This document shows, piece by piece, positions 3,124-60,700 of a stretch of 64,000 nt of DNA; position 1 is the first letter of the stretch, and each line of letters opens with the position of its first letter. The notes beneath the pieces are model-generated. The model saw only the letters and a list, made by a program, of their open reading frames with translations, was not told the DNA's origin and did not search any database. Both the position numbers and the translations under genes were made by a program. Origin of the DNA: Naegleria gruberi (lineage: Eukaryota); assembly GCA_000004985.1 (NCBI GenBank), contig GG738873.1; one strand, 5' to 3'.

Positions 3124-3154
3124 ATTAACATATATAAGATCCAAGATTTAAATA

Positions 3155-3502
3155 TTGGCCATTAATAAAATGGTAATGGGTTTTCGCCATACCCAAACCC
3201 AAACCCAAACCCACACACAAGGGATTTGGATCGAGGATTTTCCATCCCTTCACTACATTCTATCTAAGTCATTTTACAAAAAATCATATAGAAAGCTCAG
3301 CAAGTACATTGACACCTATGGAAGAAAGAGAAGAGGATGGAAGAGATTTGGAAAGAAGAGAATTATCAGAAAGAAGATTGATGTTTATGGAAAGAAGAGA
3401 AGATTTAATAAGAGAAGAATTGACACTTACAGAAAGAAGAATAGAAAGAATAGAAGAGGTGACAAGAAGAATAAGAAAGTTGATATTTACAAGCGTAAAT
3501 AA
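3155..3502 (+). pseudogene. 5'-truncated copy of the polycationic secreted repeat-peptide gene (paralog of 29385-29810). N-terminal and signal-peptide coding is replaced by unrelated sequence and telomere-like repeats. An alternative E/R-rich frame (3309-3506) is also open because the DNA is purine-rich
   Basis: C-terminal 75 aa nearly identical to the right-arm ORF ('YGRKRRGWKRFGKKRIIRKKIDVYGKKRRFNKRRIDTYRKKNRKNRRG.KKNKKVDIYKRK'). Homology to the right copy ends near 3283, so the signal peptide present in the right copy is absent here. Confidence 0.45.
3191..3213. repeat. Interstitial telomere-like tract (about 3.5 CCCAAA units followed by cacacaa) at the outer edge of the left inverted-repeat arm
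   Basis: 'acccaaacccaaacccaaaccca' at 3191-3213, same unit as the terminal telomere; lies about 70 bp outside the point where homology to the right arm stops. Confidence 0.75.
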
Positions 3503-5060
3503 TTGAAACAGAAATCAATTTCTTTAAAAAGTCTAAATTTTTGAATCAATTTTGCTTTTAATAATTATTTAACATTAGAATAAAGTTGTGAGTCTCCATA
3601 AAATTAAGTTTGTTATTTCATTTGTAAAACAATTAAGACGGGAAGCCTGCCAGGAATATGGCGACAATCCCGCTACAGTCTTTGACTGTATGAACAGTGA
3701 AGGCAACGAATCTATTGATTGTTGGTTCAGTAAGTTTGTTGTTCAAAATAAAGTCATTGATCACCATCTATTTATCACTTTTGAATTTGATCTATTTAGA
3801 AAGAGAAACTTGTGGTTGATCAATAAACATTCGGCAATATATAAAAAAATGAAATTTCTCTGTCCAAGTTGAGTTTCACATATTGCTTAGATTAAAAAAA
3901 GACTACAGCACCACAGGTTCCCAAGTTGTCTCCAACCTCAGTACTGATGTGGCTCGACAATGCGGCCGTAGCCATGCATCTTATCAAAATGTGAAAGACA
4001 AATCAAATTCATACAACTCTTTGCTGGAAATATGATGGTAAAATTTGGTTGTTGGGAGAATTGTTGGATATCTTGGAAAACTTTTGGAGTGAAACAATGA
4101 GATGAATAGTAATGTTAGATAACATCCAAGTGATGTATTTATTATTGTCCTGATGAAGATTTATCAAGTAAATAATGAATGAATAATGTTTGGAAGCATG
4201 TGAAAATTCAACTTTATCATCTCTGGAAAATAATCGAAAAACATTGGCAAAACATTCTTTATGATGTGGTACAATAACAAATCTTGTGCCTCTTGAAATT
4301 GAACAAATTTACCAAATGGTGTTTTTCACTTTGATGAAATTAAATTTTACTTTATCTTCTCCAACTCTACATGTGCTTGATGGAAAGTTTTGAAACTTTC
4401 TGAGGTGATGTTAATGAACATTTAGAACATTCCTATCGTGTTCTTATTGTCTTGTCTGATGTTTTTCATGATGAAAATATTAAAATTAATAAATTGATGA
4501 AATTCTATTTCAAGTAAAAGAATGGCATCCATTTTCTTGTTATATTTCTGATGATTATCATCCAATAAAGTGAGTTTTACTTCTCCAATTGAACAAGACT
4601 CGCCATCAATTTAATCATTGCCTTTTAAAATTTGAAATTCATGTTGAAATTTAATAAAATTAATTTCTATACATTCCAAATGATCGTATCATGTTGTGTT
4701 GAAAATGGTTTTGGAAGTGATGAAGAATTGTTTTTGAAAATCATCCATGATGAAACACGTTGCGAATTTGATGAAATTTTTCTTGTTTAATATTTTTTTA
4801 AAATCATCAAATTTCACTCATCACTTTTCTTTCCATATCAAAAAGTCATCAAATATTTTGATGTAAAGAATTAAAGATGAAAAAATTGAGAAAGCCAAGT
4901 AATAATCTAGATGAGCATTAATTTCATTGAATGAGCTTACTTAAGAGAGCCACAATAGGATTAAAAATTGTCATCACAACATCGGTCTCATCAACAAAAT
5001 CATCAACAAAATCATCATCGAGATGAAAGTATTCACATGGAAATGGATGTTTTTCTATTT
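3283..5060. repeat. Left arm of a diverged inverted repeat (partner 27900-29577, roughly 85-90% identity with indels). It carries the basic-peptide gene copy, a 5S pseudogene and about 1 kb of AT-rich non-coding DNA
   Basis: Reverse-complement matches read directly, for example 3981-4040 against 28900-28960, 3902-3960 against 29024-29079, and 4911-5040 against the reverse complement of 27900-28040. Confidence 0.85.
3901..3973 (-). pseudogene. 5S rRNA pseudogene with an internal deletion of about 46 nt (box A region). Helix I ends and the 3' half are retained, followed by a terminator-like A-run on the plus strand at 3894-3900
   Basis: The reverse complement reads 'ggctacggccgcatt|gtcgagccacatcagtactgaggttggagacaacttgggaacctgtggtgctgtagtc'. 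Compared with the intact copy at 28962-29080 it lacks 'atatcacgatgaatgcacctcatcccgtccgatttgagaagttaagcacc'. Confidence 0.8.
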
Positions 5061-5354
5061 TCCTTCCGTATTCATTTCTACTTTAAAGAGAGCAAACATT
5101 ATGGAGTTATGGAAGATTGTGTAGACAGTGAAAGGGAGTGATAATCTTGTTTTCAACGAATTTTACTCTATTGATACTATCTATTATAATAATAACCTGA
5201 TGAAAATATTAATGATCATCCTTGTGGTATTATCAACAATAAGTTGTTGTAGAAGACTTGATAAATTTCTAAATAATTTAATAGAATCAAACATGACTGG
5301 GATGACAAATTTAACCAATTTTAATATTGGATTGATATTTACTTTGGTTTTTAA

Positions 5355-6959
5355 TTAAACATTATAGGGTTTAGGAACATTTGATGCTTCGAAAAAGTAA
5401 TTGTATGTATTTGCTGCATCAACACCCAATTGATAATTGGTGTTTTTGCCTGTAGCCCAAATAGAGGAAGTACTTGATGATGGAATGAGGAAAGTTCCAG
5501 AATCTCCACAAATAATTTCTGGAAAAGTTCGATCTCCCAATACAGCAACCTTATAGAATTGAGTAAGATCTTCACCATAGTAGGATCCAATGACATATAC
5601 ATTATCCTTAAAGTCAGTGACATAGGTTGTGGTTTTACTTGGAGAGAGGCAAACATTTCTAATCATGAATGGAGTTGGAACTTTTGCTGGCATATGGTAA
5701 GGAACTATTTTAGATTCTCTTCCCAATCTAAAATCACCAGTTCCCCATGAGTAGAGTTTTCCTTCAGTTGACAATGCCATGAAATATTGAGATCCTCCAA
5801 GAATTTTAACAAATTTAACATCTGATGAAACTTGTTTCCAAGTGAATACTGGAGATCCAGTTCCTGTTGAAGCACCTGGGATTCTTGATGTTGTTGTTAA
5901 ATCTCCTAATTGACCAAGAGAGTTATCACCTGTACAGTAAATCAAGCTATTAATATTAGAAATGAAACAAATAGATTTTGGAACTGAGGTCAATGTTGCA
6001 ATAGCTACATCCACAACACCATGGTTCAACCCATCTACAATTGTAGACAATACTCTTGGTCTAGTCCAATGCTCAACTATGGCAGTATATTCAAAAGCTC
6101 CCATAAATAATAATCTACCATCAGTTGTAATCATATAGCATCCATAGAAATTATCATTACACTTAATTTTCTTAATAACTGGAGAAGGAATAACAGCACC
6201 AAAATCTGGGTTTTTCATAATATTGATTGTACCAGCCACATTTGCTCCAAGAGTGTTATCGTAATTATATCCCCAGCCCCAAACTTGTCCATCAGAAGTT
6301 AAAATTACAAAGTTATAGGTAGCCACAGCTTGTACATCCACAACTGTCTTTCCAGCAATTGGAGACATGTCAACAAATCCCACTGTTTTAATAACTCTTG
6401 CAGTCAAGTCGGCAGAATTAAAACCAGCATTTCTGTATGTAGTTTCAAATTTTCCAATAAATAATAAAGTATTGTTGGCCAATAAAGCAACAGTTCCCAT
6501 TTCAGTGGAGGCAAATCTATTCATTCTTATTCCATTATTGTATTGTGCAATAATTTGAGTATCAAGTACCTTGATAGATTCTAGAATAATCTTCTTTTTC
6601 AATTGTAAAGTGTTGGTGTAATTTACCATTTCTTGATATTGAAGACTGAAGGATGATGCAAATTGATCCACATCCTGAGCAGTCACTCCATCAATTTTTG
6701 TGATAAAGTCCTTTCCAGCAGCATCTTGTGCAAAGGAGAGTTGAGAGGCCAAATCCCTCGATGTAATAGCTTCTGCAAGATCTGAATTAATAGTGTCCAA
6801 ATAGGTTGAGATTAAATCCCTCTTTTTGAACAATTCCTCCACTTGCAATTGTTGATTCTTTGAAAAAACCAAATTGACAGGATCGGCACCTTCAACAAAT
6901 ACCAATATTGTACATATTAAGACAGCAATCAACATGCTCACCACTTGTACTCTTTTCAT
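5355..6959 (-). CDS. Secreted protein: signal peptide, about 150 aa coiled-coil-like N-terminal region, and a C-terminal RCC1-like beta-propeller. Single exon, 534 aa
   Basis: Complete ORF from ATG (6959) to TAA (5355). N-terminus 'MKRVQVVSMLIAVLICTILVFVEGA'. Repeated RCC1-type motifs 'GQVWGWGYNYDNTLG', 'IYCTGDNSLGQLG', 'GKLYSWGTGDFRLG', 'IWATGKNTNYQLG'. Confidence 0.8.
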   Translation of the reverse strand: MKRVQVVSMLIAVLICTILVFVEGADPVNLVFSKNQQLQVEELFKKRDLISTYLDTINSDLAEAITSRDLASQLSFAQDAAGKDFITKIDGVTAQDVDQFASSFSLQYQEMVNYTNTLQLKKKIILESIKVLDTQIIAQYNNGIRMNRFASTEMGTVALLANNTLLFIGKFETTYRNAGFNSADLTARVIKTVGFVDMSPIAGKTVVDVQAVATYNFVILTSDGQVWGWGYNYDNTLGANVAGTINIMKNPDFGAVIPSPVIKKIKCNDNFYGCYMITTDGRLLFMGAFEYTAIVEHWTRPRVLSTIVDGLNHGVVDVAIATLTSVPKSICFISNINSLIYCTGDNSLGQLGDLTTTSRIPGASTGTGSPVFTWKQVSSDVKFVKILGGSQYFMALSTEGKLYSWGTGDFRLGRESKIVPYHMPAKVPTPFMIRNVCLSPSKTTTYVTDFKDNVYVIGSYYGEDLTQFYKVAVLGDRTFPEIICGDSGTFLIPSSSTSSIWATGKNTNYQLGVDAANTYNYFFEASNVPKPYNV

Positions 6960-30464: not shown

Positions 30465-30545
30465 TGCAGAAGGTGGGATTTGAACCCACGAAGCTTGCGC
30501 AGTAGAACTTGAGTCTACCCCCTTTGACCACTCGGGAACCCCTGC
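30465..30545 (-). tRNA. tRNA-Leu (anticodon CAA) with a long variable arm
   Basis: Minus-strand sequence 'GCAGGGGTTCCCGAGTGGTCAAAGGGGGTAGACTCAAGTTCTACTGCGCAAGCTTCGTGGGTTCAAATCCCACCTTCTGCA'. Acceptor stem GCAGGGG/CTTCTGC, anticodon stem GTAGA/TCTAC with loop CT-CAA-GT, T-arm GTGGG-TTCAAAT-CCCAC, and a variable arm of about 12 nt. Confidence 0.85.
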
Positions 30546-32285: not shown

Positions 32286-32903
32286 ATGGTTGAAGCTACA
32301 TGTTTTGGATTATTGGCCAGCAATCCGAGGGTTTGTTCAGGTAATGGAAATTGTACATATTTAAACTTTTGTGATTGTCAAGACGGTTGGGATGGTAATC
32401 AGTGTCAAGCCTTAACAGCAATTGATATTAGAGAAGTAATGTTTGGATTTTCAATTACTGGTCCAATATTAGCTGTTATTATTTCAATCTTACTGTGCAT
32501 TCCCTTCATTATTTATATTAGGAGAAGGAAGAAGCAAGAGGAAGCAAGGAAATCAGCATCAGCTGCTGCTGGTAGTAATGTAGATACAAATTCCTCTTCC
32601 GATAGAGTGATAAGGTTTAGTGGACGAGGAAAGAGTAATAGTAATGCAGGTGATGATATTCAACGATCGCCCACCCATGCCTATCTTAAACCTCATCCTT
32701 TCACATTGGGTCGATCACACAGTGAGAGAACTGACCGATCTGATGATATACTTATTGGCAAATCAAAAAGTCCTCCTCCTTCAAGCATATCATCATTGGG
32801 AAAGACAAGGAGAGAATTGAGTGGAAGCTTTTCTGAGCCTAAAACACCAAAGAGTCCAAAAGATACTTCCAACATACTGAACGATGAAATGAATCAAGTT
32901 TAA
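32286..32903 (+). CDS. Small single-pass membrane protein: a single EGF-like module, a TM helix and a basic, Ser-rich cytoplasmic tail. It has no signal peptide, so it is possibly a fragment derived from the EGF/TM giant-gene family, or an upstream exon is missing
   Basis: 'MVEATCFGLLASNPRVCSGNGNCTYLNFCDCQDGWDGNQCQ' then TM 'VMFGFSITGPILAVIISILLCIPFIIYI' then 'RRRKKQEEARK...'. The 3' end overlaps the convergent gene 32900-35800 by 4 bp. Confidence 0.4.
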   Translation: MVEATCFGLLASNPRVCSGNGNCTYLNFCDCQDGWDGNQCQALTAIDIREVMFGFSITGPILAVIISILLCIPFIIYIRRRKKQEEARKSASAAAGSNVDTNSSSDRVIRFSGRGKSNSNAGDDIQRSPTHAYLKPHPFTLGRSHSERTDRSDDILIGKSKSPPPSSISSLGKTRRELSGSFSEPKTPKSPKDTSNILNDEMNQV

Positions 32904-35800
32904 TAAAGAGAGCTATCCTTCTTCTTTCTGTAGTGAGCATCATAGGCACAAACATAAAAGTTATCAAAGACAGGGAAAAGAGATCCCAATAATTGACGAT
33001 GAGGTTGTTCAGTGATCCATTCAATGGTTGGTGAAATGGTATGATTAGAAGTTAGAATATCTTTCGAGTCAATTATGCTTTCCACATCGTTAAGTGCACA
33101 TACAAAGTGGCACTTGTGTTTTTGAATAAAGTTTTTGTAGGAGATCATCATGTATGGGAACGGGTATGACATGATTTTGTGACAGAAAAAGTCTCCATAA
33201 TCTGAATGCTTTCCTTCTTGTTCTTCTTCAGAATCAGTGGATTCGCTTGAGATGGAAATATTGTCGTTTCGTTTTGCTGTAAATGGATTAATAACAGAAG
33301 TATCTGCCTGGTAGTAGAGTAATAAGGCTAATCCATTCAAGTCACTTTGTTTCCAATAGTAAGAGTGACTTAACAAGCCAGGTTTCTTTACAAGTTCTGG
33401 TTTATATCCTGGAACCATAACTCTAAATCCTCTATAAGCATATTTTCGCAGTCTTAATTCATAAGTAAGTGATTGTCTTTCAATATCTACAAGATTGTAA
33501 CGACGAGTAAATGCTCTTCTAAATCTTGGTAAACACCACACTTTGTTTCCATCATATCCAACGCACTGTTATTTCAAAAATTCCACAATACAGTCCAAAG
33601 TAGAATTAGTCTCGTTGTGATTGAACTCATATATTACTTACACAAGAATCAATATCAAAACCAATCAAGACCTCTGCACAACTCTTATATAATCTGGTAA
33701 CAACTTGAATAGCAGGTATGCCAGGGGCACAGAATGTTACGGTATATTTTGTTCTGACAACAATAAAATTATCCTTTTTCACCTTCTTGACCAACGAATA
33801 AATATGTCTAATCTTATCTTCTGCTTCAGATTTAGTAAGGCCGTACAAAAAAATGTCAATATCCTGAGACGACTGAAGCATAGTTGCTGCTATCTTCTTA
33901 TTGTACATACTCGCATGGGCTTTACAACAAGTTTGAATGGCTCCTCCTAATATTTAAATGAGCAAATTAATAATACAATTAGTCACTTACCTGCAATGAA
34001 AACTCCATTCCAATCCAACTCTTCGAAAATGTTTGCAGTGAAAGACTTGAAGTTGAAATCAAATTCTTCCTTTCCTGTGGCAATGATTGGTATTTCCTTG
34101 CCATGTAGTTCAGAATTATTTTCAAAATCGAACAACATGTTTGTTAGTGTTGGTTGTTCCACAGGATAAAAATCTGTGACATTATCGAACACCGAGATTA
34201 AGTTCACGAAAGGGTCATCAATCAAAGGATTTTGTCTGTCATAACTGAACAATTTTCTAAGAATTGATTCAGTTTCTCTAATTTCTCTATCTTCCTCGCT
34301 TAAATCTTCAACAGGATATCTGAAAATATCTATCTTTACAGTGAGAGCATCAATACCAAAAAATTTAGACTCCTCAATGAGTTTAATTTGTTTTTGGTTA
34401 GCCAAACCAGTTGGAATAGTTTCATTCTTGATAAACTTGTAAATATAAGAAAACATAGAAGGATCCCTATCCAAAAAGATAGACTTCTTATCCTGACTCT
34501 TATTCATTAACTTGTAAAGTAAGCTAGATTCGTACTTGAGCAATTCAGTTGATTTGAAAGCAAAATCTTCACCACCAATATTAAAAACAATATCAAATTC
34601 TTCAACTGAGGTGGATTTCGCATCCTCATTCTTGAATGATGCTTTCATTTCTACCAATTTCGAAATTAAATCCTGTTCTTTCTTCAATCTTAACTTTTCA
34701 ACTAGCAATTTAGACTTTTTTTCTTCCATTGACCTCAATTGTTTAATGAGTTCTCTAATTTTTTCATCAGCTTGAGAAATGGCTTTTTCATTGGCCTTGA
34801 CTTTTTTATAATATTCTTCTTTTTCTTGTTCAATGTGTCTGTACTTTTCAGAGAGAACCTCTAATCCTAATGGATTTTCGAAATTTTCAACCTTCTTCTC
34901 AATCAAGGTCAACAAATCTTTCACACAAAAGTAATTACAAATTTCATGAAATTCCAAATAGTTTGCCAAATTGAATCCTTCTGTAATAAACTTGAACTTT
35001 TTCCTCATGGTGCTAGTAATTTCGTCTGAAAGTTCTTTATCACTTGGTGTAATCTCCTCGTCATCACCTCTGAAAAATATGAGAATGTGTTTAAAGTAGT
35101 CTGAGTGAGGAACTGAACGGAAAACAACTCTTCCTGCAGAATCTGTTTCAATATCAAATCCTCCACTTTCCTTGTTTTCAATCATTACCTTGATCAATGA
35201 ATCATACTTCATCATTGTCTTTCTAGTGGTTTTATAAATCTTGCCGTCAATGTTCAATTCAAGAAATGTTGTATTATCAGTTTCTTCGAGATTAAACTTG
35301 ATAATTTCTTCTACCAATTCATCGGATTGTTTTTCCTTCCTCTCATACTTTAACAATTCAATTTTAGCCTTTTCTAATAATTCCCTGTCAACTTGATGAA
35401 CATTATTGACAATAGATGAAGATGCTTCTGTTTCCTCCTTGTTATTACTTTCTTCACGTTGTTTGGCCCAGTAGGCTTGCATTGATCGCTTCACATAATT
35501 TCTAACAAGTGCAGATCCTTGTGTTGGCCGTTTAGCATCCTCCAATATAGTGAAAATAGGATGTTGAAAGAGTAAATCATCCTTAGAGAAGGCTGAAGCA
35601 CCAGCCCAACCAAAAGGCTTTGTATTTAAAGTGGTACTATTATTATGAGGATGATAGGTTCCACAACTTGAACAATAATAATAATCACTATTGTTACGAC
35701 GATAATCATCATCGTAATCATCGGAATCATCGTCTTCTTCAGAGGGATGGAAGGATCTATCACTTTCCCATTCATCAGAATCTTCGCCGGATGAGTACAT
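32900..35800 (-). CDS. Protein of about 925 aa with an acidic N-terminus, two KCTD/T1-type BTB domains, and a C-terminal domain with nucleotidyltransferase-like motifs (GG..DIDIF..GFDIDSC). Three exons: join(33991..35800, 33642..33946, 32900..33565) on the minus strand
   Basis: BTB/T1-like 'LELNIDGKIYKTTRKTMMKYDSLIKVMI' and 'FDIVFNIGGEDFAFKSTELLKYESSLLYKLM'. Donor gtaagtgac (33990-33985), acceptor atattag (33948-33947), donor gtaagtaat (33641-33636), acceptor aataacag (33567-33566). The spliced junctions read '...NGVFIAG|GAIQTCC...' and '...GFDIDSC|CVGYDGNKVW...'. Confidence 0.6.
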
Positions 35801-35871: not shown

Positions 35872-36383
35872 CTAGGCTAAAATTAATGTCGATAAGAATA
35901 AGATTTTTAGAGTTTTAAATTCACATATTTTAGATTGTCCAGAATTCTGGCTTGATTGTGTGTTAACAGAGTAAACTTCATAATCATCCACAGTAAAAGT
36001 TATAGAGCCAGCTAAATACAATGCACACGACTCACCAAGGACACATTCATAATCTGATCCAAAAACTGTAACACTATCTTTTTCAGTTTGGCCACGAATC
36101 ATCAAATCGGGAATTTTACCAAATTGTGGACCATTATTCTTATAATTTTCAATGGCAGACTTTGGGTTCAAAACTCTATGCAGTGACCACTTTCTTCTCC
36201 ACTTGCAGATTTAATACTGAATAACATTGCCTTTTCGTCGAAAACACGAACTCTGGTAACAGTGCTCTTCCAAGATACCTCCGAATAGCCACCAAAGATA
36301 TCTTTTCCAGACTTGGTAATCCTCAATGTTAGCCCTTTATTATCACATGCTCTGTGAAATTGTTCTAAATTGGAGCCATTCAA
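35872..36383 (-). pseudogene. TLDc-domain gene of about 170 aa, interrupted by a 1-nt frameshift in a TTTT homopolymer near 36168-36172. It also lacks an ATG in the first ORF, so it is either a pseudogene or a sequencing error
   Basis: Frame A gives 'GKDIFGGYSEVSWKST...DEKAMLFSIKSASGEESGHCIEF*'. The next frame continues naturally with 'NPKSAIENYKNNGPQFGKIPDLMIRGQTEKDSVTVFGSDYE', matching TLDc consensus blocks (FGGY..W, FLFSL, G..G..L.I). No GT..AG intron is possible in the 15-nt overlap. Confidence 0.5.
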
Positions 36384-36483: not shown

Positions 36484-38256
36484 TTACAAAACAAATGTTG
36501 GTTCAAGTTTTAGATCAATGTGGTAATCTTCCAGGCAGAAAGATTTCATACGTTCTCTCAATTCCTCATCTCTTAGATTCAATAAGGTTGACAAATGGTT
36601 GTGTAATAATTTTGAAACAAGATCTTTGCTATCCTTTTCCACATAATCACCAATAATATTCAATGATTTTCTCAACATTTCTCTATTAATTGAACTAGAC
36701 AAGAGCATCTCAAATGCTTCTTCGAAATTAACATACTTCTGTGAGTCTTCCTTTTGTTGCAATTCATAGAGCCATTCATCGTCATTAACTTTGTCCTCTC
36801 CTATAAGTTCAATGATTTTCTGGGTGGTCTTTCCATCCAAATCAAAAGCAATATCTTCTCCCAAAACTGAATTCCTCTTTGAAAAGTGAACAGGTCTTGA
36901 AATAAAATCAGAAAGGAGAGCATTTGTCATGGATTCATCAGTTAGAATTTTTGTTCTAAGAGTCGCATTCAAAGAAGCCAGTTTCAATGCATTGCTAGAG
37001 CATTCACCAATCAAGGAAAAATACTTGACCTGACTAGTTCCAATATTTCCTACAAGACATTCAGAACGAGATACTCCAATTCCATAATCTAGTTCTGGTA
37101 ACTTGACTTGATCTTTAAGTTGTGAATTGACTGCTTCCATTTGTTTCTTCAGATGAACAGCACACATCAATGCTCCCTTCTCAAAACTTCTTCCATTCTC
37201 AAAACTGACCATAATTATCTTTGGAGTCACTATGGTAGCTCTTCCCCTAAATTGTTTGCTAACACTCTGAACTTTCTGATATAGCATTGTGAAAACACCC
37301 AACAAATCAGTTGAAATTGGATAGCTTCTTCCATCGAAATTTCTAAATTGAATTACCAACACTGTTGCCACATATGATGAAAGCCCCAATTCCAAGCTAA
37401 CTTTCTGTTGATGATTGCTTGTCATTGATGTGGTAGCCTGTGAAACCTTGCTCTTATGAGAATGGCCCCCAACAGAACTCATTTCAACAAAACTTGATAC
37501 TAAACTCGTTTTGGAAACTTGTTTTCTTTGAGTAACGAGTTTTCTCATCTCTATGAGTTGTTTCTCACGATGTTCCTCGGCCAGTCTATCTTGTTCTTTT
37601 TCCAAATCGTCGTCTTCCATTGAAAAGAGGCTTTCTGGAATAAAGGGTCTTATTTCCTTCATGACTTTGTTAAATTCCCAAAAGAGGCTAAAGAAGGGAA
37701 TGAATTCGGCTATCAAAGTTGGCATTTTCTCAATATCTTCAAATTTCATCTTCTTCATTTTGAAGAGTTGCAAAGTAATTCTTTGAAGTGGTCGTTTCAA
37801 AGTAAAATAATGTATAATTGGAATGGTAAGTAATGTCAAGATACTCATCACTACAAAGGTCAACCATGAAATGATGGAAATTATAGAAATATCAATTGAA
37901 ACTCCTTGATTAATAACTACAACCGAAGAGATCCATATTATCAAGCAAGTAATAAATAAGAGAGATAACGAGAGAGCAATCACAAGCATCCTAATTGACA
38001 TGAAACAGTCCACCACAGTTGACCTTCCGGTACTCAACGGATTATCAAACACATCACCTCGTTTTTCATCTACTTGAATGGAATCATTTGTGCTGGCACT
38101 GGGCACTATCATAATCTTGCTATTGTTTGTTTTTACATTGATTTTATCACTTCTCATTGATGCTTGCCTTGTCGAATTCAAAACAGCAATTTCTTGAGCA
38201 GAAGTTGACCCAACACTTTCAATTTCCAATCTTGATGGGAAAATACGGGTTGGCAT
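36484..38256 (-). CDS. Two-TM membrane protein with a degenerate class III adenylyl/guanylyl cyclase homology domain; probably a pseudo-cyclase. 590 aa, single exon
   Basis: TM helices at 'IRMLVIALSLSLLFITCLIIWI' and 'IISWLTFVVMSILTLLTIPII'. The CHD-like region 'ATVLVIQFRNFDG...IVTPKIIMVSFENG...LDYGIGVSRSECLVGNIGTSQVKYFSLIGECSSNALKLASLNA' aligns to F.DI.GFT...KTIGD.YM...IGIH.G.V.AGVIG...YD.WGD.VN.ASRMES, but the metal-binding Asp positions are replaced (FRNFDG, FENG). Confidence 0.6.
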   Translation of the reverse strand: MPTRIFPSRLEIESVGSTSAQEIAVLNSTRQASMRSDKINVKTNNSKIMIVPSASTNDSIQVDEKRGDVFDNPLSTGRSTVVDCFMSIRMLVIALSLSLLFITCLIIWISSVVVINQGVSIDISIISIISWLTFVVMSILTLLTIPIIHYFTLKRPLQRITLQLFKMKKMKFEDIEKMPTLIAEFIPFFSLFWEFNKVMKEIRPFIPESLFSMEDDDLEKEQDRLAEEHREKQLIEMRKLVTQRKQVSKTSLVSSFVEMSSVGGHSHKSKVSQATTSMTSNHQQKVSLELGLSSYVATVLVIQFRNFDGRSYPISTDLLGVFTMLYQKVQSVSKQFRGRATIVTPKIIMVSFENGRSFEKGALMCAVHLKKQMEAVNSQLKDQVKLPELDYGIGVSRSECLVGNIGTSQVKYFSLIGECSSNALKLASLNATLRTKILTDESMTNALLSDFISRPVHFSKRNSVLGEDIAFDLDGKTTQKIIELIGEDKVNDDEWLYELQQKEDSQKYVNFEEAFEMLLSSSINREMLRKSLNIIGDYVEKDSKDLVSKLLHNHLSTLLNLRDEELRERMKSFCLEDYHIDLKLEPTFVL

Positions 38257-48787: not shown

Positions 48788-51700
48788 TTAATTCCATACA
48801 GCATAACTATTAACCATAACATTAGGATCTGCATCATCATCATCAAATTCTGGCATAACATTTGTTGTTGTTGCTGTAGATGAGGACATTTGATCATCAG
48901 AAGAATTCATCTTATCAAACAAGTCATTCATTGCATCTTGTAAATCATCTCTGTTGTGGGCATAATCATAAACAGAATACTTGCTACTTCTCATCTTCTT
49001 TCTTCTGTAATACCAAATACCAGCAACAACGAATACCAATACTGTAACTATTAAAATAATTGCAACTGCACCAGAAATTGCTCCAGCAAGAATGGTTGTA
49101 ATATTGGAGGATTCCATGTTAGGTAATAAAGTGGCATGGGCAACACACTTTTGAACTTTACAAGCAGCCACAATATTGTACAAATCTGTTTCAATGTTAA
49201 TGGTTGGCTTATTTAGAATTTGAGTACAAGTTACACTACTTTCCAACCTTAATGTGTAATTATGAGAGAACTTTTCAATAAATTGAGGGTAAGTGATTGG
49301 GAGAATAAAAGAGTTAGAATTACAAATGGCATCTCCATTGCTGTCCTTGATTGTGTAAGAGAGAGTGGCTTTCCAATCCTTATAATCTTGAGAGGACCAT
49401 TCAGAATAATCTAATTGAGAGAAACTGTGTGTAACCTTCATATCTAACTTCATATTTTCACCTTCTTTAAAGTCACAACGAGTAGATATATTTTTGGTTT
49501 CAAATGAATGTACCCAAGTTACTTCAGAATAAAGANNNNNNNNNNNNNNNNNNNNNNNNNNNNNNNNNNNNNNNNNNNNNNNNNNNNNNNNNNNNNNNNN
49601 NNNNNNNNNNNNNNNNNNNNNNNNNNNNNNNNNNNNNNNNNNNNNNNNNNNNNNNNNNNNNNNNNNNNNNNNNNNNNNNNNNNNNNNNNNNNNNNNNNNN
49701 NNNNNNNNNNNNNNNNNNNNNNNNNNNNNNNNNNNNNNNNNNNNNNNNNNNNNNNNNNNNNNNNNNNNNNNNNNNNNNNNNNNNNNNNNNNNNNNNNNNN
49801 NNNNNNNNNNNNNNNNNNNNNNNNNNNNNNNNNNNNNNNNNNNNNNNNNNNNNNNNNNNNNNNNNNNNNNNNNNNNNNNNNNNNNNNNNNNNNNNNNNNN
49901 NNNNNNNNNNNNNNNNNNNNNNNNNNNNNNNNNNNNNNNNNNNNNNNNNNNNNNNNNNNNNNNNNNNNNNNNNNNNNNNNNNNNNNNNNNNNNNNNNNNN
50001 NNNNNNNNNNNNNNNNNNNNNNNNNNNNNNNNNNNNNNNNNNNNNNNNNNNNNNNNNNNNNNNNNNNNNNNNNNNNNNNNNNNNNNNNNNNNNNNNNNNN
50101 NNNNNNNNNNNNNNNNNNNNNNNNNNNNNNNNNNNNNNNNNNNNNNNNNNNNNNNNNNNNNNNNNNNNNNNNNNNNNNNNNNNNNNNNNNNNNNNNNNNN
50201 NNNNNNNNNNNNNNNNNNNNNNNNNNNNNNNNNNNNNNNNNNNNNNNNNNNNNNNNNNNNNNNNNNNNNNNNNNNNNNNNNNNNNNNNNNNNNNNNNNNN
50301 NNNNNNNNNNNNNNNNNNNNNNNNNNNNNNNNNNNNNNNNNNNNNNNNNNNNNNNNNNNNNNNNNNNNNNNNNNNNNNNNNNNNNNNNNNNNNNNNNNNN
50401 NNNNNNNNNNNNNNNNNNNNNNNNNNNNNNNNNNNNNNNNNNNNNNNNNNNNNNNNNNNNNNNNNNNNNNNNNNNNNNNNNNNNNNNNNNNNNNNNNNNN
50501 NNNNNNNNNNNNNNNNNNNNNNNNNNNNNNNNNNNNNNNNNNNNNNNNNNNNNNNNNNNNNNNNNNNNNNNNNNNNNNNNNNNNNNNNNNNNNNNNNNNN
50601 NNNNNNNNNNNNNNNNNNNNNNNNNNNNNNNNNNNNNNNNNNNNNNNNNNNNNNNNNNNNNNNNNNNNNNNNNNNNNNNNNNNNNNNNNNNNNNNNNNNN
50701 NNNNNNNNNNNNNNNNNNNNNNNNNNNNNNNNNNNNNNNNNNNNNNNNNNNNNNNNNNNNNNNNNNNNNNNNNNNNNNNNNNNNNNNNNNNNNNNNNNNN
50801 NNNNNNNNNNNNNNNNNNNNNNNNNNNNNNNNNNNNNNNNNNNNNNNNNNNNNNNNNNNNNNNNNNNNNNNNNNNNNNNNNNNNNNNNNNNNNNNNNNNN
50901 NNNNNNNNNNNNNNNNNNNNNNNNNNNNNNNNNNNNNNNNNNNNNNNNNNNNNNNNNNNNNNNNNNNNNNNNNNNNNNNNNNNNNNNNNNNNNNNNNNNN
51001 NNNNNNNNNNNNNNNNNNNNNNNNNNNNNNNNNNNNNNNNNNNNNNNNNNNNNNNNNNNNNNNNNNNNNNNNNNNNNNNNNNNNNNNNNNNNNNNNNNNN
51101 NNNNNNNNNNNNNNNNNNNNNNNNNNNNNNNNNNNNNNNNNNNNNNNNNNNNNNNNNTTTCTTTTGGTAAATCCAATGTTTGATGCAGTCTTCTTGATTA
51201 CATTCAACTTGATGAATGTATTCTTAACTGTATTCACAAGGTAAATAATATCGTCAACTTTAACAATACTGATCTTGTCAGAGTATTCGGAAAATTGAGA
51301 AATACTTGATGGGTAATTAGCAATTTGTTCAAACTTCATAGAATCTGTCCATAGATTGGTTTTGGAATCTTGTTGAGTAACATTTGCAATAAAGATCTTT
51401 GTTCCTTGATCAGTAATGGTGGCAATCAATATCTTGATACCTGAGGCTTCAGTAGCAGAGATTAGCGCTCTAGCGTTAGAAACTGCGTCCTTGTTTGGGA
51501 ATTCAACAGTTGATATGATTCTAACTCTAGCATCGAAGAAAATAAGGGTTGGTGTTAAGGTATATCTATTACTAGCTGTAAAGACAATTGAAGTAGTATT
51601 ATCAACAACAATATTCAAATCCTTAACTGTTTCTCTGTTGAATGTATGATTGTACAATCGTTTGTTGTCGTATAGGGTTGTCTTGATAATACTGTTTCCT

Positions 51701-54700
51701 GAGATATCTCTAGCAGATAAGGATTCATAGAATTCAATAGTAGTAACTGTAAAATTATTTGTGTTAATGGTAATACCATACAAAACAGAGTCCATAATAA
51801 AGATCTTATCAATTTGGTCTGCTTCAGTAAGGCTTGAAAGGTATTTCCAGTTTGAAATTGAGTCAACAATATCCATTTGTGTATAAATTAAAACTGAGAA
51901 ATCATCATAATTAATTACTGTAAAGTAATAAGTCCCATCAAATATTGTTGGAGTAGTAGATTTGATAGGAGATGAAGGTAAACCCAACTCGGAAAGTTTT
52001 TGGGAAGATATGACCACCAAATTACTGCATGCTACATCCATTACAATAATGTCAACCGATTTGGAAGTAACTGAAACAGAATTGACTGTAATATTGGAGC
52101 AAGACTTACTGCTGTCAAAATATTCACAATTCTTGCCGGTAAATTCTTGCTCACAAGAGCAAACATTAGGGAAAACACATACACCATGAGTGCTACAAGC
52201 ATCAGCCAAAGTCTTGTTAAAGCAAACAGGAATGGAACAATTTTCTCCTCTATAATCAGGCCTGCAAACACAAACATCTTGTGAGATACAAGTACCGTGA
52301 GCCGAGCAATTATTTCTATTGGCACAATCAAAGTATGAAGTAATGTTACATTCAATACCCTCGAATCCATAGTCACAAGTGCAATTGTTTGGAGCAGCAC
52401 AATATCCTCTATTACAAGCGTCCTTACCATACTTTTCGTAACAAATAACATACTGACATTCTTCTCCAGTATAACCTTCAGAGCATTTGCAATTATTGTT
52501 AGAAATACAAGCACCCCTGCCACTGCAAACTTGGCTATTATTGACAGATAAACCATAACAAGTATACCAATTACATGTATCAAAATCGTTACAAGTACCC
52601 TTCTTGGCACATACGTTTGGATCAGTGGCTGGTAGTCCATAACAAACCGGTGTAGAACAATTGGTTCCGATATAACCATTGCATTTACAATTGTCTGGAT
52701 AGGTACAATTTCCGTGTCCATTACAAACATTGGTTTCATTAGCTGGAATGTTATAACAAATAGTAAATTCACATTTTGGACCTGTAAAACCTTCACTGCA
52801 TTGACAGGTATCTGGCAAAGAACAAATACCACGACCAGTACAAACATTTTGAGAGTCTGAAGCATTAAAACCATAACAAATTGGAATGGAACAATCTTTT
52901 CCAACATAAGTTGAAATGCATAAGCATAAATCTGTATCGTTACAAATACCATGCCCATAACAAACAGTTGAATCATTTGAAAGAATGTCGAAACAATTTG
53001 AAACTTCACAAGCTGAACCAATGTATCCATTTGAACAAGTGCAATGGTTTGCATAATCACAGGAACCGCGATTGGAACAATCAGTAATATTGTTGACAAT
53101 ACAAGTCCAGTTTTGACAATTATTTCCAAAGTAGTTTGTTTCACATTCACAAGTATTATTGCCAATACATTTTCCTCTGGAGCTACAAACATCTGTTTCA
53201 TTACTTTCCACACCAAAGCAATGGTAGTATTCACAAACATCTGGTGCAATACATTTTCCAATTCTTCCACAAACAGTACTTGTATTAGATACCACACCAT
53301 AACAATTGGTAAGGGAACAGTCTGGAGCAAAGTACCCAACCTCGCATGTACAATTATTAGGTGAACCACAAATACCTCTTCCACTGCAAACTTCTGTTTG
53401 GGTGGAATCAAAGCCAAAGCAAATAGGAAGGGAGCAGCTTTCTCCATCATAAATAGGATCGCAAACACAAGTATCCTTATCCACACATAAACCATGTCCA
53501 GAACAAACATTTGAATCATTTGAAAGAATGTTGAAACAAATGGAAACTTCACAAGCATTACCGACATGTCCTTCTTCACAAACACAGTGATTTGCATAAT
53601 CACAGGAACCGCGATTGGAACAATCAGTAATATTGTTGACAATACAAGTCCAGTTTTGACAATTATTTCCAAAGTAGTTTGTTTCACATTCACAAGTATT
53701 ATTGCCAATACATTTTCCTCTGGAGCTACAAACATCTGTTTCATTACTTTCCACACCAAAGCAATGGTAGTATTCACAAACATCTGGTGCAATACATTCA
53801 CCAATTCTTCCACAAACATCTGGGTGAGTCAAACGTAATCCACCACAAGTTATAATTGAACAATCGACACCATCGGTATTGTTGTTACAAATGCAGGTAT
53901 CAGGAGCAACACAAACACCCTTAGAGCTGCAAACTCGTATGTCTGAAGAATTGAGACCAAAACACATAGGAATAGAACACACACTTCCAGTGAATGTGGA
54001 ATTGCAGCTACAGGTGTCATGAGAAATACATTCACCATTGTTGCTACAAACACCAGATTGGTTGGATAACAAACCATAACAAATTGGAACTTCGCAGTTA
54101 GAACCATAATAACCGTCATTGCAAACACAAACATCTGGTTCAGAACACAATCCGCTTGAAGAACAAACTGTTTGCTTGTCTGATGGAATTCCGTGGCAGA
54201 CAGGATATTGACATTCAGGACCACTGTATTGTGAAGTGCAATTACAAACGTTAACAGCAACACAATGACCATGACTATGGCAAGTACTGGAACTGTTGGA
54301 TGAAATATTAAAGCACTTATGGAACTCACAGTCAGAACCATCGTGTTCATTATCGCAAGAACAAGTGCTTTCAAATTCACAAACTCCAAAGCCACTACAG
54401 ACCGTTGTGTCATTACCTCTTTTACCATTACAAAGAACAAGGAAAATATCAGGCAATGCTTCACCCAATGAGAATTCTAAACTATACAAGGAGCCATCCA
54501 ATTTGGCATCAGAAACACCTGGTTCCGAACCAATTGTGTTTTGTTTTCCCTTGTTGAACACAGTATTTCTTATCCTCCAATCATCTAGCAAAGTTGAGTT
54601 TACTAGTTTTCTAGTACCATCAACAAACAGGCTAGTACCATGGTTTGTGCTCTTAGAGACAGCAACGGTGTGAATATTATTTTCAAAGGTATGTGGTATG

Positions 54701-57700: not shown

Positions 57701-60700
57701 AAGTCATAACCCACAAAGCTTTCACTTGTCAAAGAAGGATTTAAGGCTAGGAATTCTGGAACACCTCCAAAGAGTCCAAGAGGATTACCGTTTACCAGAA
57801 CAGTTGTCACGTAACTTTTAACAACATTTACATGGTACAGTAAACCAGTGTATGGAATGGCATCCTCTACGGTTAAGGTAATTGGCGATAGAGATGTTTC
57901 ACTAATTCCTTGGATAACAAGAGAAGACCCATCCAAAAAGACTTTCCAGTAGCCTCCATCTTTGAGACTTATGATTGGTTGGATTCCTCCCAAAGATTGA
58001 AGTCTAATATCAAAAGACAAACTAAAGTCATCAGAAAACAAGGTCAAAGGAGACGGATCTTCCAAAATATCGAAGATGACAGATGATTTACCAAATTGTA
58101 AATAACCATTGTTATCAAAAGAAGGATTCTCCACCATTAGGTTAACATGATAAGCTAAATCAAGCAATATTCCGTACATAGGGGCATTAATATCGAAAGA
58201 GTGTGTCAAATTCGAATTTACCACCAATGAGGTATTGTAAGAGATGAACTTGGAGTGTGGTGTATAAACCAAACGATAGTATGGATTTTCTTCCAATGTG
58301 GTTGTTTGGGTAGTCTTAATTTTTTCAATGTAAGAGTTGTCAACTTGACAGTTATTGCCGGAATACCCTACTTTACATTTACAAAAGTCTGGTTTAGTAC
58401 AAGTTCCCTTTCCAGAGCAAACATTCTTATCTTGTGATTGAACTTTGAAACATATTGGGTACTTGCAGTTAGTTCCATAATAACCAACTTTACAAGTGTT
58501 AACAGTGGTATTGACCACACTTGGCTTTGCAGTTGGGTTTGTCGATAATCCACAAAACATGGCTTCAGCGGTAGTTTTTGTATTGTTACAATCAATACCA
58601 ACCTCTATCGTTCCATTGTTAGTCTTATTCAAGTAGTTACTTGGATCATCTAGAGTACAATTAGGATTTCCTTTACATAGAGTGTTTGTAACATCAATAG
58701 AACAGTTTGCTCCAATAAATCCAGGATTACAGGCACATGTATCAGGTGCCTCACAAAGTCCTTTACCAGAACAAACTCTCTTATCATCCGAAGCAATACC
58801 AAAACAAACTGGAGTAGAGCATTTAGAGCCAGTATAATTAGAATTACAGGAACAAACATCCAAACCATAACATTTACCATGGCCATTACAAACTGATGGT
58901 TCAAGTAAAAATGTACCATCACAAGTAAATGCTCTATCAAGTATGTCAGTTGGTGATTGTGGTGTTGAAGCAACAACTATCTTACGTATTTGACCCATAA
59001 AATGTGATTCCTTTCCATCCACAAAGTTATAGCCTATTCTTGCACCCATATCTTTACCTGCCATTGTATTCTTATAGTCTCTACTGAATACAGAGGTGAA
59101 AACTTCCTTATTATTTACAACAACAGATGTACCACTTATGGACGATTTGGTGATTAATATAGAGTAGGGCACATGTTCTACCTCTATTACATATGGAATT
59201 GATATTACTTCAGGTTTTATCAACTCTTTGGTATTACCTTCAATAAACAACACACGGTCAAGCAAGTAAATGTTAAAAGCTGCAACATCAGAAACGAAAA
59301 GTATAGGACTAATTGCTTCGAAACTGTCAATTGTCAGATCTATGTAAATAACGAAATCGTTGATGAATGGGACAAACAGTTTTGAGGTTGGGATGTCCAT
59401 TTTTGCAAGTTTGGGAACAATATAGCTGGCACTATCCACGGACAAGCCTGAAATTTGAACAGTTGTTGAATTTCTAAGTTCAACTAAATTACCAGTTTCG
59501 TCTAAATAAGCTTTGTGAAGCATAAACCTGATGTACGGAATTGTATTATTGCTACTGTCAGGAAGATTAGTTTTTGTAAGGTTATTTGCGGTTAAGTTGT
59601 TGTTTGTAAAGTTACTACTTGTAACATTGTCAAATGTGAAATTGCCCCTACTATTTGTATAGTTATTATATGTGAAATTACCAATTGTAATATTATTGCT
59701 TGTAAAGTTACTAATTGTAAAGTTACTAATTGTAATGTTATCACTCGTAAGGTTACGGATTGTTAAATTAGTATATGTGAAATTACCAATTGTAATGTTA
59801 TCACTTGTAAAGTTACTATTTGTAAAGTTACCAATTGTAATATTATCACTCGTAAGGTTAGTGTTTGTAAAGTTACTGCTTGTTGAATTAGTATATGTGT
59901 AATTACCAATTGTAATATTATCACTTGTAAAGTTACTATTTGTAAAGTTACTGATCGTTAAATTAGTATATGTGTAATTACCACTTGTGGTATTCTCATA
60001 TGTAAAATTATAATAGGTAAAATTGTTGAGTGTCAAATTCGGTATTTCCGTAATTCTCATCACCTCGTTTTCTGGATAATTTGCATCATTTTGGCAATTT
60101 TGTCCCGTAATAGAATTTCTAAAACATTTACAAAAATCAGGCTTGGTACAATTACCATTTCCACTGCAAACAAGTGGATCTTCTGATTTAACACCAAAAC
60201 AAATTGGTAAAGAACAATTTGATCCATAATATCCTTCTCTGCAAGTGGTTACATTTAAGAGACCTGTTGCATTCTTCTTGGAGCAAAGATACAAATTATC
60301 ACCTGTTGGGTTTGTACAATCAATTTCAAGATCAAGAGTTCCATTAATCTTTGTATTATTACATTTACCTTCAGGATTGGTACATGTCGCCATACTAACA
60401 TTTGTTTGACACTGTGTGCCAATAAAACCAACTTTGCAAGAACATTGATTTGGTTTCTCACAATAACCATTTCCTGAACAAACCTTAGAAAAAGTGGCAG
60501 GAATATTAAAACAAACTGGAATATTGCAGATTGAACCAATGTAAGTGACATTACAGATACAATTATCATAACCAACACATTTACCATTACCACTACAAAC
60601 TTTTGGTGAGGTCATAGATATATTTGCACAGGTGAAAGATTTGTCATTCTTTGGAGGATATTGCGGATCTTCAATAGGTGGAAGATTATCATTGAGTGCA

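What the first reader, a model, noticed from the sequence alone, without database searches (positions are those of the whole stretch)
32900..35800. Double KCTD-type BTB protein fused to a nucleotidyltransferase-like C-terminal domain
After an acidic N-terminus and two T1/KCTD-like BTB domains, the spliced C-terminal third reads '...VFIAGGAIQTCC...(26 aa)...DIDIFLYG...VLIGFDIDSCCVGYDG...'. This fits the Pol-beta-superfamily signature hG[GS] .. DhDh .. third acidic residue, although the spacing is longer than usual. A BTB scaffold coupled to a possible NTase would be an unusual signalling architecture.
Basis: inference. Interest (0 to 1): 0.5.

Follow-up and report, generated by a model that had tools for sequence, protein, structure and literature searches.

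The report
Double-BTB protein with Gad2-type nucleotidyltransferase domain
This is a real three-exon gene of a Naegleria-like amoeba encoding two KCTD-type BTB domains followed by a nucleotidyltransferase-fold domain. That domain belongs to a large, already catalogued but biochemically uncharacterised family (Pfam Gad2), so the gene is a new member of a known kind rather than a new architecture.

Summary
A 926-aa protein is encoded on the minus strand at 32900-35800. It carries an acidic N-terminus, two T1/KCTD-type BTB domains separated by a probable coiled coil, and a roughly 400-aa C-terminal domain.

Two points need correcting. 'GFDID' sits at the position of class II motif B (RRD) and is not the third catalytic carboxylate; that position probably holds an invariant Gln. 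The architecture is also not unique. Double-BTB plus this domain recurs in Acrasis, Willaertia and Naegleria lovaniensis, BTB plus this fold occurs in giant viruses, and a Pandoravirus BTB-NTase family was described in a 2023 preprint.

Activity and substrate are unknown. Relatives fused to PARP, PBZ, WWE and PNKP modules hint at a link to poly(ADP-ribose) or DNA damage.

The parts
32900..35800 (-). Whole gene: 3-exon CDS, 926 aa plus stop (stop codon at 32900-32902)
   Evidence: ORF list, sequence and splicing script. Collinear with Acrasis kona KAL0489973.1 over aa 142-778, 31% identity, E 9e-83.
33991..35800 (-). Exon 1 (aa 1-603 plus the first base of codon 604)
   Evidence: A 98%-identical 605-aa ORF (P0008) lies on an ENA/Logan metagenome contig.
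33947..33990 (-). Intron 1, 44 nt, GTAAGT..TAG
   Evidence: Splicing restores VFIAGGA, the family consensus VF.AGGA.
33642..33946 (-). Exon 2 (aa 604-705): NTase core from GG through DxD, Gln684 and the motif-B-like GFDID
   Evidence: The ORF covering this exon (P0089, 91 aa, 100% identical) carries a precomputed Pfam hit to PF26128 Gad2.
33566..33641 (-). Intron 2, 76 nt, GTAAGT..CAG
   Evidence: Splicing restores GFDIDSCCVGYDG, which is near-invariant in the family.
32900..33565 (-). Exon 3 (aa 706-926 plus stop)
35681..35800 (-). Acidic low-complexity N-terminus (aa 1-40)
   Evidence: Read from the translation. No Pfam hit.
35024..35275 (-). BTB1, T1/KCTD type (aa 176-259)
   Evidence: Pfam BTB_2 E 4e-4, 21.1 bits when scanned alone. 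phmmer against the PDB: BACURD3 BTB 5fta E 5.6e-5, BACURD1 4uij E 4e-4.
34616..34849 (-). K/E-rich linker between the BTBs (aa 318-395), probably a coiled coil
   Evidence: Inference from the sequence. The only match is a weak YabA hit, E 0.26.
34337..34591 (-). BTB2, T1/KCTD type (aa 404-488)
   Evidence: Pfam BTB_2 aa 404-488; E 9.8e-11 when scanned alone. PDB hits: Kelch13 BTB, SHKBP1, KCTD9, KCTD1.
32936..34270 (-). Gad2-family NTase-like domain (aa 511-915; the span includes both introns). It has an N-terminal helical part (511-595), a class II-like head (596-765) and a conserved C-terminal extension (766-915).
33939..34003 (-). Motif A part 1: VFIAGGA (aa 600-606; spans intron 1), the hG[GS] loop
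   Evidence: A603 99% and G604 100% conserved. hhalign places it on E. coli Cca LVGGAVRD, in register but not significant, E 0.14.
33849..33863 (-). Motif A part 2: DIDIF (aa 632-636), the two presumed metal-binding Asp
   Evidence: D632 and D634 100% conserved in 241 sequences. This segment is strand 2 in the homologue model.
33705..33707 (-). Gln684, invariant, on the strand where class II enzymes carry the third carboxylate (inferred)
   Evidence: Q in 236 of 237 sequences. Strand order. Compared with PcnB IIEVATFR. A Pandoravirus family shows the same conserved Gln.
33648..33674 (-). Motif-B-like EVLIGFDID (aa 695-703)
   Evidence: E695 95%, D701 100%, D703 99% conserved. Phage Gad2 has FDFTVC here, and Cca and PcnB have RRDLTIN and RRDFTIN.
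33425..33454 (-). RLRKYAYRGF (aa 743-752), an invariant basic patch (R743, K746, R750)
   Evidence: It aligns with phage Gad2 RVQKYTDKEY.
32966..33031 (-). C-terminal conserved motif PTIEWITEQPHRQLLGSLFPVF (aa 884-905)
   Evidence: Conserved in Acrasis, fungal and metagenomic relatives.

Best explanation
The gene encodes a multidomain protein of a heterolobosean (Naegleria-like) amoeba. Two T1/KCTD-type BTB domains, separated by a probable coiled coil, make it an oligomer and possibly a Cul3-binding adaptor. Its C-terminal domain is a Gad2-family member of the Pol-beta nucleotidyltransferase superfamily, and its closest solved relatives are the head domains of class II enzymes (CCA-adding and A-adding enzymes, bacterial poly(A) polymerase).

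Most likely the domain is catalytically active. The G604-G605 loop and D632/D634 would bind Mg2+-NTP. D701 would occupy the ribose-recognition position of motif B. An NMP would be transferred to a hydroxyl of an acceptor, most plausibly the 3' end of an RNA or another nucleotide-containing polymer.

It is not a CCA-adding enzyme. The RRD motif is not kept, no match to the class II family model was found, and the conserved C-terminal part has no detected counterpart in class II enzymes.

Shown: the gene model, the BTB domains, family membership, the fold (on homologues) and residue conservation. Inferred: catalysis, metal ligands, acceptor, oligomeric state and Cul3 binding.
For: - Gene model and motifs.
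- BTBs.
- Family: precomputed PF26128 Gad2 on the exon-2 ORF and on most of the 98 homologues listed.
- Link to phage Gad2 (SPbetaL7, WIT28108.1): hhalign E 0.0058 with motifs in register; hmmsearch against that single target E 8.9e-6; shared PHROG families phrog_4400 and phrog_1614 'nucleotidyltransferase'.
- Conservation: G604, D632, D634, Q684, D701, R743, K746 and R750 are about 100% conserved, and the window protein keeps all of them.
- Architecture: collinear double-BTB plus domain proteins exist in Acrasis kona, N. lovaniensis and Willaertia magna.
- Literature: Gad2 was predicted to be an NTase by AlphaFold2 (bioRxiv 10.1101/2023.05.01.538930). The authors of the Pandoravirus preprint, citing Hou et al. 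2005, state that class II CCA-adding enzymes need only the two motif A carboxylates (bioRxiv 10.1101/2023.12.02.569716).
Against: - No member of this family has a demonstrated enzymatic activity in the literature I could search.
- The canonical third carboxylate appears to be replaced by Gln.
- The GG-to-DxD spacing is 26 residues rather than 9-13.
- Sequence profiles do not reach class II NTases: no PDB hit by profile, hhalign against E. coli Cca/PcnB E 0.14, and no Pfam PolyA_pol or NTP_transf hit at E<=1.
- The structures are of homologues, not the window protein itself.
- BTB oligomerisation and Cul3 binding rest only on homology to KCTD and BACURD proteins.
- The introns have no transcript evidence.
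Confidence: 0.55

Rival explanations
1. ADP-ribose-linked enzyme (a refinement of the best explanation). The Gad2-type domain works in poly(ADP-ribose) or DNA-damage signalling. For example, it might add a nucleotide to ADP-ribose or PAR hydroxyls, or to damaged DNA or RNA ends. The BTBs would couple this to Cul3-dependent ubiquitylation.
For: Relatives carry the domain fused to:
- a PARP catalytic domain alone (P0003, P0004, P0109);
- PARP_reg-PARP, with WGR in some and BRCT in two (P0112, P0118, P0145, P0168, P0183);
- PARP plus two ubiquitins (P0111);
- a PBZ-type zinc finger, PF10283 (P0035);
- WWE, in the double-BTB proteins of N. lovaniensis and Willaertia;
- PNK3P plus an AAA_33 kinase, a PNKP-like arrangement (P0193);
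- an HMG box.
That PBZ and WWE bind PAR is established knowledge, not something tested here.
Against: The window protein has none of these modules. The sample of architectures was chosen by me for long N-terminal extensions, so it is biased. Most top hits are ankyrin-repeat fusions. Kinase and TPR fusions also occur. Fusion with PARP does not identify the acceptor.
Confidence: 0.2
2. Non-catalytic module. The NTase-like domain only binds a nucleotide or nucleic acid, or serves as the substrate-recognition end of a BTB-Cul3 ubiquitin ligase adaptor, as Kelch or MATH domains do in other BTB adaptors.
For: The third carboxylate is apparently replaced by Gln. There is non-canonical spacing and no detected match to class II models. 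BTB1's best solved match is a Cul3 adaptor, BACURD3. No activity is known for any member.
Against: Absolute conservation of G604, D632, D634 and D701 over about 240 diverse members is what a working active site would show. Pseudo-NTases usually lose the DxD motif (general knowledge). The preprint, citing Hou et al. 2005, states that class II CCA-adding enzymes work with two carboxylates.
Confidence: 0.15
3. tRNA 3'-end (CCA) maturation or repair enzyme, as proposed for the Pandoravirus BTB-NTase family.
For: The top structural hits are CCA-adding and A-adding enzymes. The Pandoravirus preprint proposes tRNA maturation.
Confidence: 0.07
4. Gene-model artefact: the BTB ORF and the NTase exons are separate genes, or the locus is a pseudogene.
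For: There is no transcript evidence. A prokaryote-style gene call on the metagenome contig lists three separate ORFs. The N. fowleri homologue is annotated as a stand-alone 302-aa protein.
Against: The spliced CDS is open for 926 codons. Canonical splice sites restore invariant motifs. Exon 1 already contains the first 93 residues of the NTase domain (aa 511-603), so the domain spans the intron. Acrasis, Willaertia and N. lovaniensis proteins are collinear. The N. fowleri model is truncated next to a run of N, with BTB-like and domain-start ORFs just upstream.
Confidence: 0.03

Closest known systems
Pandoravirus 'cluster 7' BTB-nucleotidyltransferase proteins (representative A0A2U7UAG2; bioRxiv 10.1101/2023.12.02.569716)
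   Different: That family is viral and has a single BTB described there as BTB-BACK, not the T1/KCTD type. The window protein is cellular, has two T1-type BTBs with a probable coiled coil between them and an acidic N-terminus.
Phage Gad2 (Gabija anti-defence 2; Bacillus phage SPbetaL7, WIT28108.1), namesake of Pfam PF26128
   Same: The same motif order: AGGA, D-x-D-[IV]-[YF], T..A.T, Q on the last core strand, FD..C, then R..KY. Profile-to-sequence E 8.9e-6 for the single target; hhalign E 0.0058. Both hit phrog_4400 and phrog_1614. Gad2 was predicted to be an NTase by AlphaFold2.
   Different: Gad2 is a 400-aa stand-alone phage protein that blocks the bacterial Gabija system; no mechanism had been published in the library I searched. 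It has FDFT instead of FDID. It lacks the BTBs, the N-terminal helical segment and the C-terminal IEW..GSF.P motif. Similarity to the eukaryotic branch is remote: it is not found at E<=1e-3 in a multi-sequence search.
Class II nucleotidyltransferases (CCA-adding and A-adding enzymes, bacterial poly(A) polymerase; Pfam PolyA_pol PF01743)
   Different: No significant sequence or profile match. RRD is replaced by GFD. The third carboxylate is replaced by Gln (inferred). The tRNA-binding body and tail are not matched. The GG-to-DxD insert is longer.
Heterolobosean double-BTB plus Gad2-domain proteins (Acrasis kona KAL0489973.1 and KAL0486384.1; Naegleria lovaniensis XP_044551059.1; Willaertia magna KAL9656478.1)
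   Same: The same BTB - linker - BTB - NTase order. Collinear alignment with KAL0489973.1 over aa 142-778 (31% identity, E 9e-83). Two BTB_2 stretches in each.
   Different: They share only 27-31% identity with the window protein, so they are paralogues or distant orthologues. The Naegleria lovaniensis and Willaertia proteins add a C-terminal WWE domain that the window protein lacks. All are annotated only as hypothetical or 'BTB domain-containing protein'.
KCTD / T1-type BTB proteins (KCTD1, 5, 9, 16; BACURD1 and BACURD3; SHKBP1)
   Same: Both BTBs match PF02214 and solved KCTD-type BTB domains.
   Different: KCTD proteins have a single BTB and a small C-terminal domain. None has an NTase domain or a tandem BTB.

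Membership tests
Pol-beta nucleotidyltransferase superfamily | Core alpha/beta fold (strand - helix - strand - helix - three further strands) | tested here: met
Pol-beta nucleotidyltransferase superfamily | hG[GS] loop after strand 1 | tested here: met
   I-A-G604-G605. G604 is 100% conserved in 239 sequences. Ascomycete members have AGS.
Pol-beta nucleotidyltransferase superfamily | [DE]h[DE]h on strand 2 | tested here: met
   D632-I-D634-I-F. Both Asp are 100% conserved in 241 sequences.
Pol-beta nucleotidyltransferase superfamily | Spacing of 9-13 residues between G[GS] and DhD | tested here: not met
   26 residues in the window protein. The spacing ranges from about 16 to more than 100 in the family, so this is a variable insert.
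Pol-beta nucleotidyltransferase superfamily | Third catalytic carboxylate on a neighbouring strand | tested here: inconclusive
   No conserved acidic residue lies on strands 3-5. An invariant Q684 sits where PcnB has the E of IIEVATFR; this rests on sequence pattern and strand order only, because no model coordinates were available. The same was reported for the Pandoravirus family.
Class II NTases (CCA-adding/poly(A) polymerase, PF01743) | Significant match to the family model or to family sequences | tested here: not met
   No Pfam hit at E<=1. No PDB sequence hit with the single sequence or the profile. hhalign against E. coli Cca plus PcnB gives E 0.14, with only motif A in register.
Class II NTases (CCA-adding/poly(A) polymerase, PF01743) | Motif B, DxxRRD (ribose recognition) | tested here: not met
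   The sequence reads E695-V-L-I-G-F-D701. Only the flanking acidic residues are kept and the two Arg are absent.
Class II NTases (CCA-adding/poly(A) polymerase, PF01743) | Base-reading motif (EDxxR...) and tRNA-binding body and tail domains | tested here: inconclusive
Pfam PF26128 (Gad2) | Match to the family model | tested here: met
   Precomputed Pfam hits were used. The exon-2 ORF, identical to the window (P0089), and the corresponding ORF on the metagenome contig are labelled PF26128:Gad2 at the unmarked level, meaning E<=1e-5. The closest full homologues are also labelled. The model is absent from the local Pfam copy, so I could not rerun it.
Pfam PF26128 (Gad2) | Homology to the namesake phage protein Gad2 | tested here: met
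   hmmsearch of the 256-sequence family profile against Gad2 alone gives E 8.9e-6, with two stretches in register. hhalign gives E 0.0058. The relationship is remote but consistent.
Pfam PF26128 (Gad2) | Anti-Gabija activity | not testable with these tools
   This is a phage phenotype. It is not expected for a eukaryotic protein.
T1/KCTD-type BTB (PF02214 BTB_2) | Match above the gathering score, in two copies | tested here: met
   Whole protein: 56.5 bits against a cut-off of 21.4, two stretches. BTB2 alone: 42.3 bits. BTB1 alone: 21.1 bits, just under the cut-off, but supported by PDB matches at E 5.6e-5.
T1/KCTD-type BTB (PF02214 BTB_2) | Homo-oligomerisation and/or Cul3 binding | not testable with these tools
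   This rests only on analogy with KCTD and BACURD proteins.

The most novel reading that the evidence does not exclude
The eukaryotic Gad2-type domain is a previously unrecognised enzymatic arm of poly(ADP-ribose) and DNA-damage signalling. It would be a two-carboxylate, Gln-containing class II-like nucleotidyltransferase that modifies ADP-ribose or PAR, or damaged nucleic-acid ends. It is repeatedly fused to PARP1/2-like catalytic modules, PBZ, WWE, PNKP-like and ubiquitin/BTB/RING modules. Phage Gad2 would then disarm the nucleotide-sensing Gabija nuclease by related chemistry. The window gene would be the BTB-coupled (Cul3-linked) version of that enzyme in a free-living amoeba.
Probability: 0.2. 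Interest if true: 0.75.

Novelty: new member of a known kind. Interest (0 to 1): 0.38.

Why it matters
The gene itself is one more member of an already catalogued family, and its BTB-NTase architecture already has a described viral counterpart. What is of wider interest is the family. It has at least 9084 cluster representatives across fungi, Heterolobosea, other protists, giant viruses and phages. Its putative active site is strictly conserved. No biochemical activity is known for any member, including phage Gad2, for which only the anti-Gabija phenotype is known.

The cellular double-BTB versions, and the fusions to PARP, PBZ, WWE and PNKP modules seen here, give testable hypotheses about the acceptor substrate. 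A free-living amoeba related to a culturable genus offers a cellular context in which to test them.

Tried and rejected
I modelled the homologues P0001 and P0020 instead.
- The local Pfam copy does not contain PF26128, so neither the window protein nor its homologues show a C-terminal hit there. The family name came only from precomputed annotations.
- phmmer and profile searches of PDB sequences with the C-terminal domain found nothing meaningful: no hits at all, and one chance IFT74 hit at E 0.96.
- tblastn of the core against 50,697 phage records gave only weak, probably spurious hits to a microvirus 'DNA pilot protein', E 0.01. Gad2 had to be fetched by accession through phi3T and SPbetaL7.
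- hhalign against an E. coli Cca/PcnB mini-alignment was not significant, E 0.14.
- NCBIfam gave nothing.
- PHROGs gave only marginal hits for the eukaryotic proteins, E 0.001-0.2.
- Literature searches found nothing for 'PF26128', for BTB + nucleotidyltransferase + Naegleria, for NTase + WWE + BTB + PARP + PBZ, or for a Gad2 mechanism.
- I considered that the upstream TLDc-like ORFs (35872-36383) might be 5' exons of this gene. I rejected this because every frame has stops before the ATG at 35800, including after a plausible short intron.
- I considered a glycosyltransferase-type DxD reading of GFDID. I dropped it after the fold searches.
Full report
**The window.** It is eukaryotic, with about 31-37% GC in coding stretches, short introns and very AT-rich spacers. 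Its closest named relatives are heterolobosean amoebae (Naegleria fowleri, Acrasis kona). A contig with an ORF 98% identical to the exon-1 product occurs in an ENA/Logan metagenome assembly (ERZ929261 / ERR1078381).

**Observation.**
- On the minus strand a 605-aa ORF (33983-35800) runs into a GTAAGT donor at 33990.
- Joining the three exons gives an open 926-codon CDS ending at 32900.
- Comparative evidence for the splicing is strong. The junctions rebuild VFIAGGA and GFDIDSCCVGYDG, which are contiguous and near-invariant in relatives.
- The intron-less N. fowleri homologue aligns across both junctions in one HSP (52% identity over 298 columns, E 2e-96).
- Exon 1 already contains the first 93 residues of the C-terminal domain, so the BTB part and the NTase part cannot be separate genes.
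- The ATG at 35800 is preceded by stops in all frames.

**BTB domains.**
- Pfam BTB_2 matches twice (E 3.7e-15).
- BTB2 (aa 404-488) is clear: E 9.8e-11, with solved matches to Kelch13-BTB, SHKBP1, KCTD9 and KCTD1.
- BTB1 (aa 176-259) is borderline in Pfam when scanned alone (21.1 bits against 21.4). It nevertheless matches the solved BTB domains of the Cul3 adaptors BACURD3 and BACURD1 at E 5.6e-5 and 4e-4.
- A K/E-rich stretch that looks like a coiled coil links the two; this is inferred from the sequence.
- The first 35 residues contain 16 D/E (read).

**C-terminal domain: family.**
- A search with aa 534-926 found 15 proteins. A profile of the core found 98. Most carry a precomputed Pfam label PF26128, which another tool names 'Gad2'.
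- The ORF identical to exon 2 of the window carries that label itself (P0089). The local Pfam copy lacks this model.
- Gad2 is Gabija anti-defence protein 2 of Bacillus phage SPbetaL7. It is a 400-aa protein that AlphaFold2 predicted to contain a nucleotidyltransferase domain. Its mechanism is unknown (bioRxiv 10.1101/2023.05.01.538930).
- I fetched that protein (OQ921347.1 109563-110765) and tested the link. The eukaryotic family profile matches it in register at E 8.9e-6 for the single target, and hhalign gives E 0.0058.
- Gad2 and eukaryotic members hit the same PHROG families, phrog_4400 and phrog_1614 'nucleotidyltransferase'.
- The relationship is remote but real. An exhaustive profile search found 9084 cluster representatives at E<=1e-3.

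**C-terminal domain: fold.**
- The spliced window protein could not be submitted, so I modelled two homologues.
- Foldseek against viral models returned giant-virus CCA-adding/poly(A) polymerase enzymes. It also returned giant-virus 'ankyrin repeat' and 'BTB domain-containing' proteins.

**Residues.**
- In an alignment of about 240 relatives, these positions are 91-100% conserved: G604, D632, D634, Q684, D701, D703, D710, G711, R719, R743, K746 and R750. The window protein keeps all of them. The second refutation test, 'GG/DID not conserved', is also not met.
By sequence pattern, E695-x3-G-F-D701-I-D703-S-C corresponds to class II motif B, D-x-x-R-R-D-[FL]-T-I-N. Phage Gad2 has the intermediate F-D-F-T-V-C.
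- The strand that carries the third carboxylate in PcnB (IIEVATFR) reads IQVVTRLY here, with an invariant Gln. This is inferred from strand order and sequence pattern.
- The 26-residue GG-to-DxD spacing is a variable insert in the family.
- Sequence methods do not connect the family to class II enzymes, and the defining RRD motif is absent. I therefore do not file it as a class II CCA-adding/poly(A) polymerase member, only as a Pol-beta-fold relative whose nearest solved neighbours are those enzymes.

**Precedent.**
- A 2023 preprint on Pandoravirus hypothetical proteins (bioRxiv 10.1101/2023.12.02.569716) describes a family with an N-terminal BTB and a class II-like NTase domain.
- Pandoravirus proteins are among the BFVD hits here.
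- Within Heterolobosea the full double-BTB plus domain architecture recurs. It occurs in Acrasis kona KAL0489973.1 and KAL0486384.1. With an added C-terminal WWE domain it occurs in N. lovaniensis XP_044551059.1 and Willaertia magna KAL9656478.1.
- The window protein is collinear with the first of these over aa 142-778.
- The N. fowleri gene model is truncated next to a run of N, with BTB-like and domain-start ORFs just upstream.

**Other architectures of the domain (a sample biased towards long N-terminal extensions).**
- PARP_reg-PARP, in some with WGR, BRCT or ankyrin repeats (P0112, P0118, P0145, P0168, P0183)
- PARP plus two ubiquitins
- PBZ zinc finger
- RING plus MYND
- PNK3P plus AAA_33 (PNKP-like)
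- HMG box
- protein kinase
- TPR
- WD40
- very long ankyrin-repeat proteins

The recurrence of PAR-writing and PAR-reading modules and of a DNA-end repair enzyme suggests a link to ADP-ribose or DNA-damage signalling, but does not show one.

**Mechanism, with degrees of support.**
- Shown: the gene model (comparatively), two T1-type BTBs, membership of the Gad2 family, a Pol-beta NTase fold in close homologues, and an invariant GG/DxD site.
- Inferred: the domain binds Mg2+-NTP through G604/G605, D632 and D634, with Q684 and D701 assisting. It transfers an NMP to a hydroxyl of an unknown acceptor, and the BTBs oligomerise the enzyme and may dock Cul3.
- I put 0.55 on an active NTase of this kind. 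I put 0.2 on the more specific PAR or DNA-damage version, 0.15 on a non-catalytic binding or adaptor role, 0.07 on tRNA CCA maturation and 0.03 on a gene-model artefact.

**Verdict.** Novelty is limited: this is a new cellular member of a catalogued but uncharacterised family, with an architecture already seen in relatives and in giant viruses.

Noticed in passing
window 1-334 (and 1-4000): There are 56 tandem copies of AACCCA (TTTGGG-type on the other strand) at 98% match, right at the start of the window. The first 4 kb are only 14-17% GC. This looks like a telomere, so the window would be a chromosome end and the BTB-NTase gene would lie about 33 kb from it.
   Followed up: partly
window 35872-36383 (-): Two adjacent ORF pieces in different frames (71 aa and 99 aa) read like a TLDc-type domain (FHRACDNKG...IFGGY..., GPQFG...); I recognised this by eye and did not test it. 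The first piece has no ATG. They lie between the 590-aa ORF at 36484-38256 and the BTB gene. A GTAAAT overlaps the stop of the 590-aa ORF, so they may be its 3' exons or a decayed gene.
   Followed up: partly
L007 (N. fowleri VFQX01000061.1) 4560-5910: The annotated N. fowleri homologue FDP41_008560 (302 aa) is probably a truncated model. Upstream ORFs encode a BTB-like piece (GRILFQDVPQAQYFSYILSYFR) and the start of the NTase domain (LRKLFSFDRTNPLLDDPHLSLISVFEN). A run of N interrupts the locus.
   Followed up: partly
window 50001-52000: A second extremely AT-rich island, GC 13.6%, sits inside otherwise 31-38% GC sequence.
   Followed up: no
window 59649-60039: A degenerate tandem repeat array with a 15-nt unit (TACTAATTGTAAAGT) and higher-order periods of 60, 75, 105 and 120 nt.
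   Followed up: no
window 30465-30545 (-): A tRNA-Leu(CAA) gene, 81 nt.
   Followed up: no
window 36484-38256 (-): A 590-aa ORF directly upstream, with hydrophobic segments near its N-terminus and a long C-terminal region. No Pfam hit is on record for the identical product on the metagenome contig.
   Followed up: no
P0193 (JGI metagenome protein, 1022 aa): A relative in which the Gad2-type domain is inserted between a PNK3P phosphatase domain and an AAA_33 kinase domain. This is a PNKP-like DNA-end repair enzyme carrying the NTase-like domain in the middle.
   Followed up: partly
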